64,000 nt of DNA from NCBI GenBank assembly GCA_963704645.1, contig OY969926.1, positions 384,001-448,000 of the forward strand. Reading direction: 5' to 3'. Source of the stretch: an uncultured bacterium (GTDB lineage: Bacteria; Patescibacteriota; JACMRA01). The notes under the pieces were generated by a model. It saw only the letters and a program-made list of their open reading frames with translations. It was not told the DNA's origin and searched no databases. The position numbers were made by a program, and so were the translations under genes. Every line of letters begins with the position of its first letter. Positions within the stretch are counted from its first letter, which is position 1. Positions 40,385 to 48,372 of the stretch are shown here, piece after piece.

Positions 40385-41873
<1,489 letters not shown>

Positions 41874-42134: not shown

Positions 42135-42156
42135 TTCCCCGTAAGGGGAGTTTTTT
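42135..42156 (+). terminator. Rho-independent terminator closing the 16S transcript
   Basis: TTCCCC-GTAA-GGGGAG followed by TTTTTT. Confidence 0.75.
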
Positions 42157-42202
42157 GTTTTTGACAGAAGAAGTTAGCAAGTATTTGTTTAACTTAACAA
42201 TT

Positions 42203-42850
42203 ATGTCTAGTAATATTTTACCTTTAGAAAAAGTAATTGAAATACTTAAAACATCAAATCTTCCAGGATTGGTAGGTGGTGAGAAATATATTTTAAGTTA
42301 TTATAAACGTGATCCAACGGCATTTACTTATTGGTATAATAAAGCAGAATATCATTCTAACGAAAGAAATAAAAATGGTTTGGGTGGTTCAAGTTATTCA
42401 CTTTGGATTGCTGCAAATTATGTATGTGGTAAATTAGACTATCCTCATACCTTTTATTGCAAATATTGTATGCTAAATTTCCATGAGACGAATGAATTAA
42501 AGCCTCAATTTGAACATTTTTTACCAAGAGTACAGCGCCCATCAAACATTAATGAAGCCTGTGATTTTTGTAATAAATTAAAAGCTGATAAAACACCTGA
42601 GTATTTCTGGGATCAGTTGTCCGATGAGAAAATTATAAAAGGTTTGCAACCACTTAACAAGCATTTTCTTCCGCTAATCGTTAGGTATAATTCGTCTTTA
42701 GAAAAGCATAATTGGAGAACTTTAGATTGGAAATATTTTATGATAACTTTTGCTAAAAATGATTTTGGGATTGAAATTATAGATGATAATCAGTTTGAAG
42801 TTATAAGAAAATATTGCATTTTGTTTAGAAATAAATATAAGCCTAAATAA
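42203..42850 (+). CDS. HNH endonuclease-domain protein
   Basis: CKYC...EHFLPR...N...ACDFCNKLK. Confidence 0.8.
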   Translation: MSSNILPLEKVIEILKTSNLPGLVGGEKYILSYYKRDPTAFTYWYNKAEYHSNERNKNGLGGSSYSLWIAANYVCGKLDYPHTFYCKYCMLNFHETNELKPQFEHFLPRVQRPSNINEACDFCNKLKADKTPEYFWDQLSDEKIIKGLQPLNKHFLPLIVRYNSSLEKHNWRTLDWKYFMITFAKNDFGIEIIDDNQFEVIRKYCILFRNKYKPK

Positions 42851-42937
42851 ACCAACGCGGTATCTTTTAATAGTCTTATGAATTTAATATATATGTTTTG
42901 ACAAAAGGCCTGAGGGCGGGTTTAGTTGGTTTATACA

Positions 42938-44848
42938 ATGAAAATTATGTCGGCGGCTTTAGTTAAAAATATAAAAATATTTATTCAGGAAATCCAGAAA
43001 GTCTATAACACTGGTAAAGCTACTGAGCATAGTTATAGAAAATCACTAGAGACTCTATTAGAAAGTATTCACCCATCTATCCAAGCTTTAAATGAAGCTA
43101 AAAGACAAAGTGTGGGAGCTCCAGACTTTATTTTATTTAGAGAAAAGGTTCAGGTTGCCTTTCTTGAAGCTAAAGATATTCCTGAAAGACTTAGCGACAA
43201 AAAACATGTAGACCAAATACAAAGATATCAAGCTTTGGGTAATCTATGTTTTACAAATAATTTAGACTGGCGATTTTATAAAGGTAAAGACTTAGTTGCT
43301 GAAATTTGCATAGGAATAATAAACTTAAACGGGCAAATTGAAATTATCGAAGACAGTTTAGATACGTTGGCTAGCTTTTTAACCGAGTTTGCAGAAAGAA
43401 AGACCATAACCATAAATACGAGTAAAGAATTGGCAGAGATTATGGCCAATAAAGCCAAAGTCATGAGAGAAATTTTAGTAAGAATATTAGAACAAGATAT
43501 TAAAGAAAACAATTCGTCTACAATTTTTCAAGAATATGAAACTTTCAAGAAAATTTTAATTCACGATTTGGAAATTACCCAATTTGCAGATATTTATAGC
43601 CAAACTGTTGCTTATGGTCTTTTTACTGCAAGGTATTACGATAATTCAATAGACACCTTTACTAGAGCTGAAGCTGCTAATGACTTGCCTAAGTCTAATC
43701 CATTTCTTAGAAAACTGTTTCAGACTATTGCTGGTTATGACTTAGATGAAAGGTTGGCTTGGGTAGTTGATAATTTAGTTAATGTTTTTGCTCATAGTGA
43801 TGTTAAAGCTTTAATGGCCGATTTTGGAAAAGCTACCAATGTTTCTGATCCAGTCTTACATTTTTACGAAACTTTTTTGTACCACTATGACCCAAGTACG
43901 CGTAAAGCCAGAGGTGTTTATTATACACCAGACCCAGTAGTTAAATATATTGTTAAAAGTGTGGATGAGATTTTGCAAACAGAATTTAACTTGCCAATGG
44001 GGCTGGCTGATAACTCTAAAATTGATATAGAAATTTCTGCAGAGGAGGCAAAAAACAATTCCAAAGCTAAAAAAATAGGGAGTAAGTACTTTGTAGATTT
44101 TCATAGGGTACAAATATTAGATCCAGCTACTGGTACAGGTACTTTTCTGCTTGAAGTTTTCAATAATATTTACACTAAGTTTGAAAACAGCAAAGGAATT
44201 TGGCAAAGTTATGCCCAAAACGATTTGTTACCAAGAATACACGGCTTTGAAATTTTAATGGCTAGTTACACCATGGTGCATTTAAAATTAGCTATGTTTT
44301 TAACCGAAAAAGAAGTAGAAATTAAAAACAGGCTGTCAGTTTATTTAACCAATTCTTTGGAAGAACAAAAAGACGATGGTTTTGACTTATTTAGTAAATG
44401 GCTAACCGACGAAGCTGAAGAAGCTAGTAGAGTTAAAAATCAAGCTCCCGTAATGGTAGTAATTGGCAACCCTCCTTATTCGGTTAGTTCTTCAAATAGT
44501 GGCGAGTGGATTCAGAATTTAATTAAAACTTACAAAGAAAACTTAAACGAGAGAAAGATAAATTTAGATGATGATTATATAAAATTTATTCGCTATGGCC
44601 AACATTATATAGAAAAAAATGGTGAGGGAATTTTGGCTTACATTTCAAACAACTCTTTTATAGACGGTGTAACCCACAGGCAAATGAGAAAGTCTTTAAT
44701 GGAAACTTTTGATAAAATTTATATTTTGGATTTACATGGAAACAGCAAGAAAAAAGAAACTACACCAGACGGCGGAAAAGACGAAAATGTATTTGATATT
44801 CAACAAGGGGTGAGCATTAATATTTTTGTGAAGAAAAAGAAAAATTAA
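42938..44848 (+). CDS. Type IIG/ISP-like restriction-modification enzyme, N-terminal part (nuclease + N6-adenine MTase)
   Basis: GAPDF...LEAK, RGVYYTP, ILDPATGTGTF, GNPPY; ends at NVFDIQQGVSINIFVKKKKN. Confidence 0.88.
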   Translation: MKIMSAALVKNIKIFIQEIQKVYNTGKATEHSYRKSLETLLESIHPSIQALNEAKRQSVGAPDFILFREKVQVAFLEAKDIPERLSDKKHVDQIQRYQALGNLCFTNNLDWRFYKGKDLVAEICIGIINLNGQIEIIEDSLDTLASFLTEFAERKTITINTSKELAEIMANKAKVMREILVRILEQDIKENNSSTIFQEYETFKKILIHDLEITQFADIYSQTVAYGLFTARYYDNSIDTFTRAEAANDLPKSNPFLRKLFQTIAGYDLDERLAWVVDNLVNVFAHSDVKALMADFGKATNVSDPVLHFYETFLYHYDPSTRKARGVYYTPDPVVKYIVKSVDEILQTEFNLPMGLADNSKIDIEISAEEAKNNSKAKKIGSKYFVDFHRVQILDPATGTGTFLLEVFNNIYTKFENSKGIWQSYAQNDLLPRIHGFEILMASYTMVHLKLAMFLTEKEVEIKNRLSVYLTNSLEEQKDDGFDLFSKWLTDEAEEASRVKNQAPVMVVIGNPPYSVSSSNSGEWIQNLIKTYKENLNERKINLDDDYIKFIRYGQHYIEKNGEGILAYISNNSFIDGVTHRQMRKSLMETFDKIYILDLHGNSKKKETTPDGGKDENVFDIQQGVSINIFVKKKKN

Positions 44849-44857
44849 ATTAAAATT

Positions 44858-46636
44858 ATGACTGAAAATGAACTGGTAAAAATAATTAATAAACTAAAAC
44901 AAGAAAATGAAATTACTTGGATTGAGGCTAAAAGTAATCTGTCTGATTTGCATAAAATTGGTAAGACTATCTCTGCACTGGCAAACTCTGCTAGCTGGAA
45001 AGATGAGGAATATGGATACTTAGTATGGGGTCTTGAAGATAATACTTGGAATATATTAGGAACTAATTTTAAGCTGGATAAAATAAAAGAAGGAAATTTA
45101 GATGGTAATTTGTGGTTAAAAGAGAGAGGTTTTGATTATAAGTGTGATTTTGAAGAGCGAGAGTTTACTATTGAAAATGAACGAATTTATGTTTTAAAAA
45201 TAAAGAATTGTTTTAATGAACCACTTTATTTTTTTCATAAAGACAAGCAGGCTTGGATAGCGCACATTAGAGAAGGTCAAAACAATGATGAACTCAAAAA
45301 TTTCCCTGAGAGACAAACATATATCTGTTCTAAAAAAGTAGGTTTTGACTGGTCAGCTCAGATTTGTGATGGTGCAACGCTTGATGATTTAGATGAAGAG
45401 GCTATTGAAAAAGCTAAAAGAGGTTATGTAGAAAAAAACTATGAATCCGATGTAGATAGAAAAAAAGAAATTGAGGAATACGACACAAATACTTTCCTGA
45501 ATGAGGCTAAATTGAATATAAATGGCAAGATAACCAAAACCACGATATTACTTTTAGGCAAAGAAAAGTCAGTTCACTATCTAAATACTATGGCTGAGAT
45601 AATGTGGGAAGAAAATGGGACTGAAGCATATAAAAAGTTTAAATTACCCTTTATTTTTGCTATAGATAACCTAGCTAATCACATTAGAATTAGAGATATT
45701 GAATATCCCATTTTTATGGCTGGCCAACAGACAGGACAACATGGCAAAATCCCAAACTATACTTTTAAAAATCTTAGAGAAGCTATATCAAACTGTGTGG
45801 CTCACCAAGATTATGCGATGCAGGAAAAAATTTTAGTTTATGAATCAGTTGATAAAATTACTTTGAAAAATGCTGGCAAACCATTGTTGCGGGAAAAAGA
45901 TTACAACGAACTGTTAAAACCTAAGGATCGAAATTTTGCTCCAAATAAATATAGAAATAAATGGCTCTATGAAGCAATGGACACTATTGGTTTGGTAGAA
46001 GGTAGGGGTAGTGGTTTTAGGAAAATATTTGATTATAGTACTAACAAAGCATTTTTACCAGCTCCTAGTGCAAATTTTGATTTGCAAGATAGGTTTGAGT
46101 ATACAATCTATGGAAGCGAAATAGATCCTATTTTTACTAAAATTTTAATTGAAAAAAAGGATTTGGATATTGGGATAATTTTACTTTTAGACAGAGTTCA
46201 AAAATACTCAAAAAATATTATAAATAGGCCAATAATCACCGACCAGTTTCAAATACTAAAAAAGCTAAAATTGGTAGAAGGGAGGTATCCAAAAATTTAT
46301 TTATCAGCAGAGATAATGGAGGTTTTAGATCAAAAAGAAGAATATATAAATAACAAAGGTTTTGATGAGATTTATTACATTGATTTGATACTTTCTTATA
46401 TGGAAAAATATTCCAATGCCTTGAGAATAAATATTTCTAGATTGTTGGAAAATAAACTGCCAGATGACGGAACCAATAAGTATGAAAAAGTTTCTAACTT
46501 ATTAAGAAAGATGAAAAATAAAAACATTATAGAAGTTGATAAAACTAATGGATTTCAAAATTCAACATGGAAACTTACAAGTGATTACAAGAAAAATTAT
46601 GAAGTTTACAAGACAATTTACAAGAGAAAAACCTAA
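44858..46636 (+). CDS. AlbA_2/Schlafen-like domain + HATPase_c_4-like + wHTH protein, nested in the R-M gene
   Basis: WIEAK...ISALANS...GYLVWG; LREAISNCVAHQDY; YRNKWL...GLVEGRGSG. Confidence 0.8.
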   Translation: MTENELVKIINKLKQENEITWIEAKSNLSDLHKIGKTISALANSASWKDEEYGYLVWGLEDNTWNILGTNFKLDKIKEGNLDGNLWLKERGFDYKCDFEEREFTIENERIYVLKIKNCFNEPLYFFHKDKQAWIAHIREGQNNDELKNFPERQTYICSKKVGFDWSAQICDGATLDDLDEEAIEKAKRGYVEKNYESDVDRKKEIEEYDTNTFLNEAKLNINGKITKTTILLLGKEKSVHYLNTMAEIMWEENGTEAYKKFKLPFIFAIDNLANHIRIRDIEYPIFMAGQQTGQHGKIPNYTFKNLREAISNCVAHQDYAMQEKILVYESVDKITLKNAGKPLLREKDYNELLKPKDRNFAPNKYRNKWLYEAMDTIGLVEGRGSGFRKIFDYSTNKAFLPAPSANFDLQDRFEYTIYGSEIDPIFTKILIEKKDLDIGIILLLDRVQKYSKNIINRPIITDQFQILKKLKLVEGRYPKIYLSAEIMEVLDQKEEYINNKGFDEIYYIDLILSYMEKYSNALRINISRLLENKLPDDGTNKYEKVSNLLRKMKNKNIIEVDKTNGFQNSTWKLTSDYKKNYEVYKTIYKRKT

Positions 46637-46710
46637 AAACCTTTATTTTATAGTGAAAATATTTACAAGGAAAGAAAATATTTAAATATAAAATGTCACT
46701 AACTTACAAG
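46575..46710 (+). repeat. Six copies of TTACAAG
   Basis: Starts at 46575, 46585, 46606, 46618, 46663 and 46704. Confidence 0.8.
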
Positions 46711-46768
46711 ACAAATGCACTGAAAATCTTAAATATTATAACGAATCAACATCAAAAGCACCCCTCCT

Positions 46769-47236
46769 ATGCCAGCCAAAATATACCACTATAACCTATA
46801 CGGAAAACGAGATGAAAAATATGAGTTTTTAAAAAATAATTCTGTTTCAACAACAAATTGGACTGAATTACAACCTGACGAAAAGTATCATTTCTTTGTA
46901 CCTAAAGATTTTGGAGAGCAAGTGGAATGGGAGAAGGGGGTTAAGGTGAGCGAGTTGTTTGAGGTGTTTAATAGTGGGGTGGAGACACAAAAAGATTCTA
47001 TTACTATTAACTTTGAAAAATTAACCTTAAATCAGATCAAAAAAGACTTTTTGGAATTGGAAAATAAACAAATCTTGGATAAGTATAAAATTACAGAATC
47101 AAGGGATTGGAAAATTGATTTAGCTCGTGAAGATCTGAAAAATACACAAACTATAAAAATAAACTACCGTCCTTTTGATTATCGCTGGACAGAATACTCT
47201 GGAAAGTCAAAAGGATTTATGGCTTACCCTAGGCAT
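46769..47236 (+). pseudogene. C-terminal (specificity) part of the type IIG/ISP R-M enzyme, truncated by IS481
   Basis: MPAKIYHYNLYGKRDEKYEFL...FFVPKD...SGVETQKD...YRPFDYRW...YPR, then IS sequence. Confidence 0.8.
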
Positions 47237-48316
47237 TGTATATGTCAACTTATTCAGTGACAGAATTAAGTTTCTCATAGGGAGTAATATTACCAATACC
47301 TTGATGTCTTCTAATATGGTTGAAGTAGCAACAATATTCAAATAATTCTTCTTCTAAACTTTCTTTATCTGGGTATACTTGCTCTCTAAGTAATTCTTCC
47401 TCTAAACTTCTCCAGAATCTTTCTACTTTACCATTGGTTTGTGGCCTGTAGGCTCTAGTGTACTTATGCTTAATGTTGTATTCTAACAGTAATCTTTCAA
47501 ATGGATGGTTTTGTTTGTTTTCTTCTTTTGTTTCTTTCCTTCCAAATTCGGGTCCATTGTCTGTTAATATACTTTGAAAATCTATGTTGTAACATCTATT
47601 GAATACTGCTAATAATCTTTGAGTATAAAGCATAACTGTTAGAGCTTGCAGATTAGGTATTAGTATGGTCATAACTATTCTAGTAAAGTCATCTGTTAAG
47701 CTTAGTAGAAAGTATTCATTCTTTTCACCCTCCAGTATTCCTTTAGCTAGTCTGTGGCAATCCATATGGCCTAATTCTCCTGCTTTATCTTTAATGATTC
47801 TTCTTTTGTTAGTTTGAATTACTCTTGGATCTAATCTATTCAATCCTTTCTTTAATAGTATATTGTAAATAGTCGTAGGTGAAGGAGTATATTTACCATA
47901 CTTAGGTAAAAGGAAATCGTGTATCTCATATCTACCAAATCCTTGGTTTCTAAGTTCAATAATCTTATTCTGTATGAAAGGAATACTTTTTAAACTACCA
48001 AACTTTCTCCCTCTTTTCTTTGGAATTAAACTACTATCCATAGAAACTAATTTATACCTATTGTAATATTTGATGAAGTTTTGTCTAGTTATATTATTTG
48101 CTTTGTAGAATTCATTTACAAATACATATCTAGGATGTTTCCTTGTTTTAATTAATTCATATTCTTGAACTAATTGTTTCATATGTCTAAGGTAATTCTT
48201 GGTTAAAGTATTATCATTTAAACGCATATTATGTTAGAATATATGTTGTTAAAAATTTAACAGAAATAATCTAAAAGAAGATTTAAATTCTGTCACTGAA
48301 ATTTATGACATATACA
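47237..48316 (-). mobile_element. IS481-family insertion sequence, 1080 bp
   Basis: Ends TGT...ACA with IRs TGTATATGTCA-N5-TTCAGTGACAGAATT; flanks AGGCAT and AGGATG do not form a TSD. Confidence 0.88.
47250..48227 (-). CDS. IS481-family DDE transposase
   Basis: GHMDC, DDFTR, LTDNGPEF, YRPQTNGKVERF. Confidence 0.92.
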   Translation of the reverse strand: MRLNDNTLTKNYLRHMKQLVQEYELIKTRKHPRYVFVNEFYKANNITRQNFIKYYNRYKLVSMDSSLIPKKRGRKFGSLKSIPFIQNKIIELRNQGFGRYEIHDFLLPKYGKYTPSPTTIYNILLKKGLNRLDPRVIQTNKRRIIKDKAGELGHMDCHRLAKGILEGEKNEYFLLSLTDDFTRIVMTILIPNLQALTVMLYTQRLLAVFNRCYNIDFQSILTDNGPEFGRKETKEENKQNHPFERLLLEYNIKHKYTRAYRPQTNGKVERFWRSLEEELLREQVYPDKESLEEELFEYCCYFNHIRRHQGIGNITPYEKLNSVTE

Positions 48317-48372
48317 AGGATGACAATTTTTGGCTATTAACTCACAATTCTCATCAATAAGTTGAGATACAC

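What the first reader, a model, noticed from the sequence alone, without database searches (positions are those of the whole stretch)
42938..47236. R-M gene split at an inter-domain loop by a nested AlbA/Schlafen-ATPase-wHTH gene
Seen: part 1 ends NVFDIQQGVSINIFVKKKKN* and part 2 starts MPAKIYHYNLYGKRDEKYEFL. From my knowledge of the family these segments are contiguous in single-chain type IIG/ISP-like enzymes, separated only by a short Lys-rich loop. Between them sits an intact 592-aa gene starting 9 nt after the stop, with no transposase, IRs or TSD visible. Both halves have clean stop and start codons. Inference: this is a domesticated two-subunit R-M that embeds a second effector or regulator (AlbA_2/Schlafen domains include anti-phage RNases), possibly a guard that acts when the R-M is inhibited.
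Basis: partly seen in the sequence, partly recalled or inferred. Interest (0 to 1): 0.7.

Follow-up and report, generated by a model that had tools for sequence, protein, structure and literature searches.

The report
Split restriction gene hosting Schlafen gene
A restriction-modification gene is cut in two at a flexible linker with a Schlafen-type defence gene in the gap; other bacteria carry other defence genes in the same slot, but this copy has since been broken by a jumping gene.

Summary
The split is real. Part 1 (42938-44848) holds the nuclease and methyltransferase. Part 2 (from 46769) holds the start of the DNA-recognition domain. The two abut without loss at the Lys-rich linker of ~1,050-aa single-chain Type IIG relatives. 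An intact 592-aa Schlafen-GHKL ATPase-HTH gene ("Schlatpase") lies between them.

An IS481-like element (47236-48317, 8 copies in the genome) cuts it after residue 155. The remaining two thirds of the recognition domain were not found anywhere in the 1.27-Mb genome, so this R-M copy is most likely dead.

The architecture is not unique. The same linker is split in 3 of 18 scorable relatives in the phylum sample and 6 of 76 scorable GTDB loci. The slot holds different genes: SoFic, KilA-N, YhcG nuclease, an unknown gene, or nothing. One origin of the split is rejected (p-AU 6e-68).

Relatives of the nested gene sit next to R-M genes in 28 of 75 metagenome loci, and between two genes of one system in 11 of 48. 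They also carry phased ~11-nt direct repeats at their 3' end (TTACAAG x6 here).

Verdict: a new variant of known kinds (RM+S Type IIG; defence genes embedded in R-M loci). The guard function is untested.

The parts
42938..44848 (+). Part 1: RM half of a Type IIG enzyme (N-terminal PD...ExK nuclease motif plus gamma-class N6-adenine methyltransferase). It stops inside the Lys-rich MTase-TRD linker. An alternative TTG start lies at 42926.
   Evidence: ORF. Pfam N6_Mtase, Eco57I, MmeI_Mtase. PADLOC REase_MTase_IIG PDLC03610, E 5e-185. PDB matches to DrdV-type 7lo5 and LlaBIII over the MTase only. Catalytic columns invariant in split and whole relatives.
44858..46636 (+). Nested gene: 592-aa prokaryotic Schlafen (AlbA_2) + GHKL ATPase (PF13749) + C-terminal winged-HTH region ('Schlatpase-HTH').
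   Evidence: Pfam SLFN_AlbA_2 at 18-146 and HATPase_c_4 at 325-414. E18-x4-E23-x-K25, E308, N312, G384 and G386 are invariant in 16 relatives. AF2 model pLDDT 83. Foldseek: 3lmm (E 1e-16), SLFN13, SLFN11, PDK/histidine kinases, MarR-type wHTH.
46575..46710 (+). Six exact TTACAAG direct repeats (spacings 10, 21, 12, 45, 41 nt). Four lie in the last 62 nt of the nested gene and two in the spacer.
   Evidence: 6 of the window's 22 matches lie in 136 nt, all on the + strand. The repeat finder family D1. Relatives have the same kind of array at their 3' ends.
46637..46768 (+). 132-nt spacer between the nested gene and part 2.
   Evidence: No terminator-like site found here, and promoter-like sites are not above chance.
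46769..47235 (+). Part 2 remnant: the first 155 residues of the S-like half (linker end plus start of the Type_ISP_C recognition domain). The ORF runs on for 8 IS-encoded residues to a stop at 47258-47260.
   Evidence: Pfam Type_ISP_C positions 1-101 of 342. PADLOC model positions 658-814 of 1096. Alignment with 13 stand-alone S-like halves ends at ...GFMAYPR.
47236..48317 (-). IS481-like insertion sequence, 1082 bp. IRs at 47236-47267 and 48286-48317; transposase at 47250-48227.
   Evidence: IRs. (rve domains; transpos_IS481 E 1e-45 but below NCBIfam's cut-off). 8 full copies at 99-100% identity in the genome. Flanks compared.
48318..48372 (.). 55 nt between the IS and the stop of the next, unrelated minus-strand gene. 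There is no room for the missing ~300 residues of the recognition domain.
   Evidence: The own genome matches only residues 1-147 of a 460-aa intact homologue.

Best explanation
The locus is a Type IIG (DrdV/MmeI-like) restriction-modification system in a two-gene form. An RM gene (nuclease + methyltransferase) and an S-like gene (recognition domain) are separated exactly at the inter-domain linker. The gap serves as a slot for an accessory defence gene. Here the slot holds a self-contained cassette: a Schlafen-GHKL ATPase-HTH gene together with a phased array of heptamer repeats at its 3' end.

The three genes lie on one strand. They are spaced 9 and 132 nt apart, and no terminator-like site was found between them, so they are probably co-transcribed (inferred). 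By homology, the nested protein is an ATP-switched, oligomerising tRNA-cleaving effector. Its HTH probably binds the repeats head-to-tail, either to park the protein or to control the gene downstream (inferred). I take it to act as an independent second line of defence that rides in the R-M operon, not as a subunit of the enzyme.

The own lineage and its sister (G060) share the same junction (...FVKKKK(N)* / MPAK...) but carry different cargo (Schlatpase versus SoFic), so cargo is exchanged within an already split gene. In this genome an IS481-like element and an associated loss of DNA removed about two thirds of the recognition domain. The R-M enzyme can therefore no longer read DNA, and this copy is a recent relic.
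For: Anatomy and continuity.

Truncation: Type_ISP_C positions 1-101 of 342 only. There is no other match in the 1.27-Mb single-contig genome. The other 7 copies sit in one REP-like target with GGG on both sides, whereas this copy has ...ggca | gga....

Recurrence of the split: 3 of 18 scorable loci from a 401-genome phylum sample and 6 of 76 scorable GTDB loci. Among the best 150 cluster representatives for an intact S-like half, 27 begin with Met plus a short Lys-rich leader at the linker, against 47 of 950 aa or more (counted by eye).

Cargo: SoFic in G060 (PADLOC E 1e-104). KilA-N, DUF1016/YhcG, both together, or a 223-aa protein with no Pfam match. None in G072. Gene spacing in these loci runs from 26 nt of overlap to 149 nt (256 nt in G072).

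Several origins or re-fusions: 7 changes on a 103-row tree, at least 4 forced by starred branches. One clade is rejected, delta lnL 583, p-AU 6e-68.

Nested protein: Ex4ExK and GHKL motifs are invariant (motif named in passages of PMC13056530). ATP-driven tetramerisation and tRNA cleavage were shown for a SLFN-GHKL fusion (passages of bioRxiv 10.64898/2026.05.29.728809).

Habitual R-M embedding of the family: 28 of 75 loci have an R-M gene as immediate neighbour. 11 of 48 loci with both neighbours called lie between two genes of one system: 6 mod...res, 5 Type I.

Repeat array: a 7-mer with 4 or more copies occurs at 27 of 74 family 3' ends, against 11 of 364 other 3' ends in the same loci. 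Spacings peak at 10-12 and 21-22 nt.
Against: No expression or activity data exist for any of these loci. Co-transcription is inferred from spacing only, and promoter-like sites are not above chance.

The exact pairing of this R-M family with a Schlatpase at the linker was seen only here. 0 of 80 Schlatpase loci hold this R-M family, and none of the other split loci with readable cargo holds a Schlatpase.

The tree cannot tell splitting from re-fusion. Recombination between R-M genes could also inflate the number of 'origins'.

The R-M neighbour counts rest on BLAST clusters labelled from one representative each. Singleton neighbours were not classified, so the counts are lower bounds.

According to the passages I read in PMC13056530, HisKinase-type Schlafens were among the seven tested in E. 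coli, and the two reported as protective were of other types. Autonomy of this class is therefore not shown.

Binding of the HTH to the repeats is pure inference. The repeats could equally act in the mRNA.

The missing 3-nt duplication at the IS could reflect one point change rather than a deletion.
Confidence: 0.55

Rival explanations
1. Guard model. The Schlafen protein is held latent by the R-M complex and is released to cleave tRNA when a phage anti-restriction protein inhibits the enzyme, as PrrC is by EcoprrI.
For: The gene is embedded in an R-M operon, like prrC (review passage in PMC12707154; abstract of PMC1484252). The family is nested in Type I and Type III systems in 11 of 48 loci, usually abutting the upstream M or S gene (gaps -8 to +16 nt in most). 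A preprint reports a Schlatpase fused to a Type I S subunit. HisKinase-type Schlafens tested alone were not among those reported as protective, which would fit a need for a partner.
Against: Here the R-M is broken but the Schlafen ORF and its catalytic residues are intact. A guard that fires on loss of R-M integrity should then be toxic or decayed. The same slot holds unrelated genes, including SoFic, for which PADLOC has its own system model. 47 of 75 family loci have no R-M cluster member as immediate neighbour (a lower bound on R-M linkage).
Confidence: 0.2
2. Controller model. The protein is mainly a DNA-binding regulator (C-protein-like). Through its HTH and the phased repeats it sets the expression of the gene downstream of it (here the recognition half; elsewhere res or hsdR).
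For: The C-terminal region resembles MarR-type winged HTH. Phased direct repeats lie between the gene and the next one, here and in relatives, often as two clusters 60-110 nt apart. The family's typical position is after the M or S gene and before the R gene, with a 75-220 nt spacer downstream.
Against: The nuclease Ex4ExK motif and the GHKL ATP-binding residues are invariant in the family, which a pure regulator would not need. No promoter signal above chance was found in the spacer. No binding data exist.
Confidence: 0.15
3. Plain gene death. A foreign gene landed in a single-chain R-M gene and inactivated it; the halves are pseudogene pieces with accidental start and stop codons.
For: This copy is decaying (IS, lost recognition domain). 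Lys codons in the linker are one substitution away from stop codons (sequence).
Against: Both halves are intact and tightly spaced in G060 and in four Bacteroidota loci. 27 of 150 cluster representatives start cleanly at the linker. All catalytic columns are invariant across seven split part-1 proteins at 52-97% identity. The own lineage and G060 share the junction at 70% identity, so the split is old.
Confidence: 0.05

Closest known systems
Type IIG enzymes with a separate specificity subunit (BcgI, CspCI, BsaXI: RM + S)
   Same: Nuclease and gamma-class methyltransferase are in one chain and DNA recognition is in a second protein. [quoted passage not shown]
   Different: Here the S-like half is a single Type_ISP_C domain, not a two-TRD Methylase_S protein. 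The split recurs inside a family that is mostly single-chain, and a third gene sits between the two halves.
Single-chain DrdV/MmeI-type Type IIG (IIL) enzymes (PDB 7lo5) and PADLOC REase_MTase_IIG PDLC03610
   Same: Same domain order (nuclease, MTase, recognition domain). Part 1 aligns with 7lo5 residues 285-574. Parts 1 and 2 together cover the PADLOC model from position 2 to 814.
   Different: Two genes instead of one, with cargo in the linker. This copy lacks model positions ~815-1096.
PrrC anticodon nuclease embedded in the Type IC EcoprrI locus
   Same: A tRNA-cleaving, NTP-regulated effector gene lies inside an R-M operon.
   Different: Unrelated folds (ABC-ATPase + ACNase versus Schlafen + GHKL). 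PrrC sits between separate hsd genes and does not split a fused gene. Silencing by the R-M enzyme is shown for PrrC and untested here.
'Schlatpase' proteins (SLFN AlbA_2 + GHKL PF13749, mostly with a C-terminal HTH); pSlfn HisKinase-HTH class
   Same: Same architecture and motifs. It is the commonest prokaryotic Schlafen class: HisKinase 34.0% and HisKinase-HTH 19.2% of 5,930, and 60,692 of 103,533. One Poribacteria R-M operon has a stand-alone or S-fused Schlatpase.
   Different: I found no mention of systematic nesting in Type I, III or IIG operons, of a split Type IIG host gene, or of 3' repeat arrays in the passages searched.
Type ISP enzymes (LlaGI, LlaBIII)
   Same: Homologous methyltransferase (part 1 residues 395-638 align with LlaBIII 898-1149), and Pfam's Type_ISP_C domain is found in part 2.
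   Different: No helicase-like ATPase domain. The nuclease-MTase half is only 640 aa. It is not a Type ISP enzyme.

Membership tests
Type IIG R-M enzyme (PADLOC REase_MTase_IIG; DrdV/MmeI-like) | N-terminal PD-(D/E)xK nuclease motif | tested here: met
   P62-D63 ... E77-A78-K79 are invariant in 15 split and whole relatives and in 7 split forms. Sequence motif only; no activity data.
Type IIG R-M enzyme (PADLOC REase_MTase_IIG; DrdV/MmeI-like) | Gamma-class N6-adenine methyltransferase motifs (DPATGTGTF, NPPY) | tested here: met
   Both motifs are present in part 1 and invariant. Pfam N6_Mtase, Eco57I, MmeI_Mtase.
Type IIG R-M enzyme (PADLOC REase_MTase_IIG; DrdV/MmeI-like) | Complete C-terminal recognition domain | tested here: not met
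   Only Type_ISP_C positions 1-101 of 342 are present. Nothing more was found in the genome. The intact homologue in G060 covers 1-342.
Type IIG R-M enzyme (PADLOC REase_MTase_IIG; DrdV/MmeI-like) | All activities in one polypeptide | tested here: not met
   A stop at 44846-44848 and a new start at 46769, with a gene between them.
Type ISP (LlaGI/LlaBIII) | SF2 helicase-like translocase domain between nuclease and methyltransferase | tested here: not met
   No helicase family in Pfam. PDB alignments cover the MTase only.
Prokaryotic Schlafen nuclease (pSlfn) | SLFN_AlbA_2 domain with the Ex4(E/D)xK active-site motif | tested here: met
   Pfam E 2.7e-12. E18-ITWI-E23-A-K25 is invariant in alignment A2. 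The motif is as stated in PMC13056530. Foldseek matches SLFN13 and SLFN11.
Schlatpase supradomain (SLFN + GHKL ATPase PF13749) | GHKL (Bergerat) ATP-binding domain after the SLFN domain | tested here: met
   HATPase_c_4 E 3.5e-7. E308, N312, G384 and G386 are invariant. Foldseek matches PDK2 and histidine-kinase catalytic domains. ATP binding was not tested.
Schlatpase-HTH | C-terminal helix-turn-helix domain | tested here: met
   No Pfam HTH. The AF2 model's C-terminal part matches MarR-family wHTH proteins (MepR, YusO; probability 0.98-1.00, E 0.05-0.16), and the whole model matches 3lmm at E 1e-16. The support is structural only.
PrrC-like R-M guard | Physical association with, and silencing by, the linked R-M enzyme; activation by an anti-restriction factor | not testable with these tools
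   Only the genomic embedding could be checked (met). The folds are unrelated to PrrC.
IS481-family insertion sequence | DDE (rve) transposase matching the family model, terminal IRs, multiple copies | tested here: inconclusive
   transpos_IS481 is the best NCBIfam match (E 1e-45), but its 156 bits are below the 224-bit cut-off. 32-nt IRs. 8 copies.

The most novel reading that the evidence does not exclude
The MTase-recognition-domain linker of single-chain Type IIG enzymes is a general plug-in site, and the cargo is functionally wired to the enzyme. Under this reading the Schlafen-GHKL-HTH protein is parked as an inactive oligomer on its own phased DNA repeats. It is released, or its neighbour's expression switched, according to the state of the R-M complex. 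That would explain why the commonest class of bacterial Schlafens was not among those reported as protective when tested without neighbours, and would make R-M systems sensors for a family of abortive-infection effectors.
Probability: 0.2. Interest if true: 0.75.

Novelty: new variant of a known kind. Interest (0 to 1): 0.5.

Why it matters
Three points could guide experiments.

1. A mostly single-chain R-M family repeatedly adopts a two-gene form at one linker, and that gap holds varied defence genes. This gives a simple rule for finding new defence genes: look inside split Type IIG genes.

2. The commonest bacterial Schlafen architecture, whose members were not among those reported as protective in the one study I could read, is often built into Type I, III and IIG operons. 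It should therefore be tested together with its R-M neighbours.

3. These genes carry a helically phased repeat array at their 3' end. This is a concrete, testable handle on how the HTH domain is used.

The locus in this window is itself a decayed copy and is of little interest as a working system.

Tried and rejected
Complex prediction: nested protein against the part 1 MTase domain plus the part 2 remnant. The verdict was 'no answer', so it is not used either way.

Sequencing runs: one low-depth sediment run held 26% of the sampled words as short contigs. No contig bridged the part 1/nested, nested/part 2 or part 2/IS junctions, so nothing could be learned about IS-free alleles.

Promoter and terminator scan: 29 promoter-like sites against 31.2 expected; no terminator-like site on the + strand between the three genes.

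Rfam: only the 16S rRNA and two tRNAs; nothing in the locus.

Mobile-element signature around the nested gene: no bracketing IRs or duplications.

Type ISP membership: rejected, because there is no helicase domain.

Search for the same pairing elsewhere: 0 of 80 Schlatpase loci hold this R-M family at E <= 1e-4. The nearest Schlatpase in the 401-genome phylum sample is only 36-39% identical.

A possible continuation of the reading frame after the IS (...DDNFWLLTHNSHQ*) resembles homologues only weakly, and I do not rely on it.

Literature: searches, and passage look-ups, found no description of the split-linker slot or of the 3' repeat array. I read passages and abstracts only, never whole papers. 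Supplementary tables of PMC13056530 (architectures, neighbourhoods) are closed and may already tabulate R-M linkage.

Full report
WHAT IS THERE. Four features lie in a row on or beside the + strand.
- A 636/640-aa ORF (42938 or 42926 to 44848).
- A 592-aa ORF (44858-46636), starting 9 nt after the first stop.
- A 132-nt spacer, followed by a 163-aa ORF (46769-47260).
- A minus-strand 325-aa ORF (47250-48227) that overlaps the end of the third ORF.

Pfam places N6_Mtase, Eco57I and MmeI_Mtase in ORF 1. It places SLFN_AlbA_2 (18-146) and HATPase_c_4 (325-414) in ORF 2. In ORF 3 it finds Type_ISP_C, but only profile positions 1-101 of 342. ORF 4 has integrase-core (rve) domains. PADLOC's Type IIG model PDLC03610 (1096 positions) is matched from position 2 by ORF 1 (E 5e-185) and at 658-814 by ORF 3. 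A complete 16S rRNA gene lies just upstream at 40385-41871.

THE JUNCTION. Full-length relatives of 1,013-1,067 aa at 67-70% identity read ...NVFDIQQGVSINIFVKTGKKKEGEPAKVYHKDLYGKR... (P0005; likewise P0006 and P0009). Part 1 ends ...NIFVKKKKN* and part 2 begins MPAKIYHYNLYGKR. The two halves are therefore consecutive pieces of one gene, cut inside the Lys-rich linker with nothing missing. Solved structures match only the methyltransferase part: 7lo5 residues 285-574 of 1029, and LlaBIII residues 898-1149 of 1578. There is no helicase domain, so the enzyme is Type IIG (DrdV/MmeI-like) and not Type ISP. No inverted repeats or duplications bracket the nested gene.

It has 32-nt inverted repeats at 47236-47267 and 48286-48317 and an IS481-like transposase (best NCBIfam match, below its cut-off). 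The genome holds 8 full copies at 99-100% identity.

Part 2's stop codon lies inside this element, and only 155 residues are native. Aligned with 13 stand-alone S-like halves, the native part ends at ...GFMAYPR. About 300 residues are missing, including the most conserved blocks. Only 55 nt separate the IS from the next, unrelated gene. The single-contig 1.27-Mb genome (87% complete by marker genes) has no other Type_ISP_C match, and it matches only residues 1-147 of the 460-aa intact homologue.

The other seven IS copies all sit in one REP-like hairpin target (ccctgaaacaagttcaggg | IS | gggtgaca) with GGG on both sides. This copy has ...cctaggca | IS | ggatgaca..., with no matching triplet. 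That pattern suggests an IS-associated deletion, although a single point change cannot be excluded. Either way, the enzyme has lost its DNA-reading domain. Part 1 and the nested gene are still intact, so the loss is probably recent.

THE SPLIT RECURS, WITH OTHER CARGO.

Phylum sample. In an even sample of 401 genomes of the same phylum, 30 have a relative at E <= 1e-20. Of 18 loci I could score at the linker, 3 are split.
- The own genome.
- G060 (same family, 70% identity). Its slot holds a 376-aa SoFic gene (Fic_N, Fic, SoFic-like_C; PADLOC SoFic E 1e-104). That is followed after 11 nt by an intact 460-aa S-like half covering Type_ISP_C 1-342, and then by an Abi_alpha gene.
- G072. It has a 256-nt gap and no nested gene.

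GTDB representatives. Among 80 loci, 76 could be scored and 6 are split at the same place (Pfam).

| Locus | Cargo in the slot |
|---|---|
| L050 | KilA-N + DUF1016/YhcG nuclease |
| L058 | KilA-N |
| L071 | YhcG |
| L100 | YhcG |
| L113 | 223-aa protein with no Pfam match |
| L051 | unknown (contig ends) |

All genes are on one strand, and spacings run from 26 nt of overlap to 149 nt. All split part-1 proteins end ...NIFVKKK/R..., and the S-like halves start Met, a few Lys-rich residues, then (A)xVFHxDLYGKR.

Cluster representatives. An exhaustive search with the G060 S-like half found 6,705 representatives at E <= 0.001. Of the best 150, 27 start in this way, 47 are 950 aa or longer (fused), and 76 are fragments or unclear (counted by eye). 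The query is itself a split form, so this share is biased upwards.

ONE ORIGIN OR MANY. On a FastTree of 103 part-1 sequences (15 split, 88 whole), the split state needs 7 changes, at least 4 of them forced by well-supported branches. On a 44-row IQ-TREE subset, holding the 14 split rows together costs 583 log-likelihood units (p-AU 6e-68). The test cannot distinguish splitting from re-fusion, and recombination would mimic several origins.

The own sequence groups with P0003. That pair is sister to (P0005 whole, (P0008, G060/P0007 split)). The own lineage and G060 share the same junction on both sides (FVKKKK(N)* and MPAK...) but carry different cargo. Cargo has therefore been exchanged inside an already split gene.

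THE NESTED GENE. Its family is large: 637 cluster representatives at E <= 0.001, most of 550-590 aa. In 16 aligned relatives at 35-69% identity the following are invariant:
- E18-x4-E23-x-K25, the Schlafen Ex4(E/D)xK active-site motif as given in PMC13056530;
- E308, N312, G384 and G386 of the GHKL ATP-binding fold.

The AlphaFold2 model (pLDDT 83) matches the following:
- the uncharacterised DIP2311 structure 3lmm over its whole length (E 1e-16);
- SLFN13 and SLFN11 nuclease domains at the N-terminus;
- pyruvate-dehydrogenase and histidine kinases in the middle;
- MarR-type winged-HTH proteins at the C-terminus.

This is the 'Schlatpase-HTH' architecture. Passages of a 2026 preprint (10.64898/2026.05.29.728809) report that 60,692 of 103,533 prokaryotic Schlafen proteins carry the GHKL domain. 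They also report that ATP binding drives tetramerisation, and that tRNA is cleaved, in a SLFN-pAgo fusion. One Poribacteria R-M operon has the module stand-alone or fused to a Type I S subunit. Passages of PMC13056530 give HisKinase (34.0%) and HisKinase-HTH (19.2%) as the commonest classes. The two of seven tested genes that protected E. coli were of other classes (DUF262 and Ig-like fusions).

THE FAMILY LIVES INSIDE R-M OPERONS. I fetched 80 metagenome loci with relatives at 30-38% identity and called the nearest ORF of at least 100 aa on each side. Pfam tallies of these neighbours are dominated by R-M families.
- Upstream (65 neighbours): N6_N4_Mtase 8, ResIII 5, Eco57I 4, N6_Mtase 3, Methylase_S 3.
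- Downstream (58 neighbours): ResIII 13, HSDR_N 6, SWI2_SNF2 6, RE_endonuc 5.

I then grouped the neighbours into BLAST clusters labelled from one representative each. By this count, 28 of the 75 loci with any neighbour have an R-M gene next door. Of the 48 loci with both neighbours called, 11 lie between two genes of one system: 6 mod-X-res and 5 Type I. The gene usually abuts the upstream M or S gene (-8 to +16 nt) and is followed by a 75-220 nt spacer. The window shows the same geometry (9 nt and 132 nt). None of the 80 loci holds the window's R-M family, so the exact pairing was seen only here.

A CIS ELEMENT FOUND IN PASSING. Six exact TTACAAG repeats lie on the + strand at 46575, 46585, 46606, 46618, 46663 and 46704. 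They account for 6 of the window's 22 matches, within 136 nt. In the 80 family loci, a 7-mer with 4 or more copies occurs within -80 to +220 of the stop in 27 of 74 family genes. It occurs at 11 of 364 3' ends of other genes in the same loci. Spacings between consecutive copies peak at 10-12 nt (86 cases) and 21-22 nt (17 cases).

The motifs differ between loci but share a TAAGA-like core. Arrays reach 11 copies (L209), and they often form two clusters 60-110 nt apart. From my own knowledge, heptamers repeated with an 11-bp period are how OmpR/PhoB-type winged-helix proteins bind head-to-tail. I therefore infer that the array is the binding site of the protein's own HTH. An RNA role (3' UTR) is not excluded.

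HOW IT MOST LIKELY WORKS.
- Shown: the anatomy, the continuity of the halves, the truncation, the recurrence of the split with varied cargo, the conserved catalytic motifs, the R-M neighbourhood of the family, and the repeat array.
- Inferred: co-transcription; that split halves reassemble into an active enzyme (by analogy with RM+S Type IIG enzymes such as BcgI; PMC4081073 passages); that the nested protein is an ATP-switched tRNase; and that it binds the repeats.

I favour an autonomous second-line effector riding in a cargo slot (confidence 0.55 for the whole statement). The slot holds unrelated defence-type genes, and the Schlafen gene survives intact beside a dead R-M.

The rivals are a PrrC-like guard (0.2), a mainly regulatory protein (0.15), and plain gene death (0.05).

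LIMITS. There are no expression or activity data. Several counts rest on my own ORF calling and clustering. The complex job gave no answer, and the sequencing-run look-up was uninformative.

Noticed in passing
window 46575-46710; loci L136, L140, L182, L187, L190, L191, L204, L209 and others (3' ends of the Schlatpase genes): There are phased direct-repeat arrays (7-10-nt units, 10-12-nt period, up to 11-12 copies, often in two clusters) at the 3' end of Schlafen-GHKL-HTH genes. A 7-mer with 4 or more copies occurs at 27 of 74 family 3' ends against 11 of 364 other 3' ends. I found no mention of this in the passages and searches.
   Followed up: partly
L041 4341-6281; L100 6625-8385; L074, L075; P0241, P0249, P0250, P0267, P0386: There is a second hot spot inside the recognition domain. 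A DUF559 (Vsr-like, REase_MTES_1575) endonuclease domain is inserted in frame, at about Type_ISP_C profile position 182 in most cases and later in P0249. It occurs in split forms (Pfam). In-frame inserts of ~150-210 residues at the same place in the fused L074 and L075 were seen by tblastn only and not run against Pfam.
   Followed up: partly
own genome G000, eight places (L002-L009); window 47236-48317: The IS481-like element has a strict target. Seven of its eight copies sit in a REP-like hairpin (ccctgaaacaagttcaggg) next to gggtgaca, with GGG on both sides. Short solo matches to the IS ends also occur at five further places.
   Followed up: partly
window 40385-41871 and 42155-42850: A complete 16S rRNA gene stands without a 23S gene anywhere in the 64-kb window. 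It is followed by a 231-aa ORF with an HNH-like Cys/His pattern (by eye) and no Pfam, NCBIfam or PADLOC match.
   Followed up: no
L040 4377-5051 (G060): An Abi_alpha (abortive-infection) gene lies directly downstream of the intact split R-M/SoFic locus, so that locus is a small defence island.
   Followed up: no
L138, L140, L141, L152 (upstream neighbours of Schlatpase genes): In four metagenome loci a Schlatpase gene directly follows (-4 to +16 nt) a whole Type IIG enzyme of another family (Eco57I/MmeI_Mtase; 1117-1212 aa in three loci, with a 168-aa fragment in L152). Three related loci (L138, L141, L147) have a conserved 154-aa protein with no Pfam match downstream.
   Followed up: no
P0269, P0284, P0297, P0303, P0304, P0335, P0363 (listing): A group of 427-487-aa proteins starts at the conserved internal Met of ...QMRKxLxxTFDKIYILDLHGN, about 55-60 residues before the linker. 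They may be gene-calling artefacts on contig ends, or a second split point. Not resolved.
   Followed up: no
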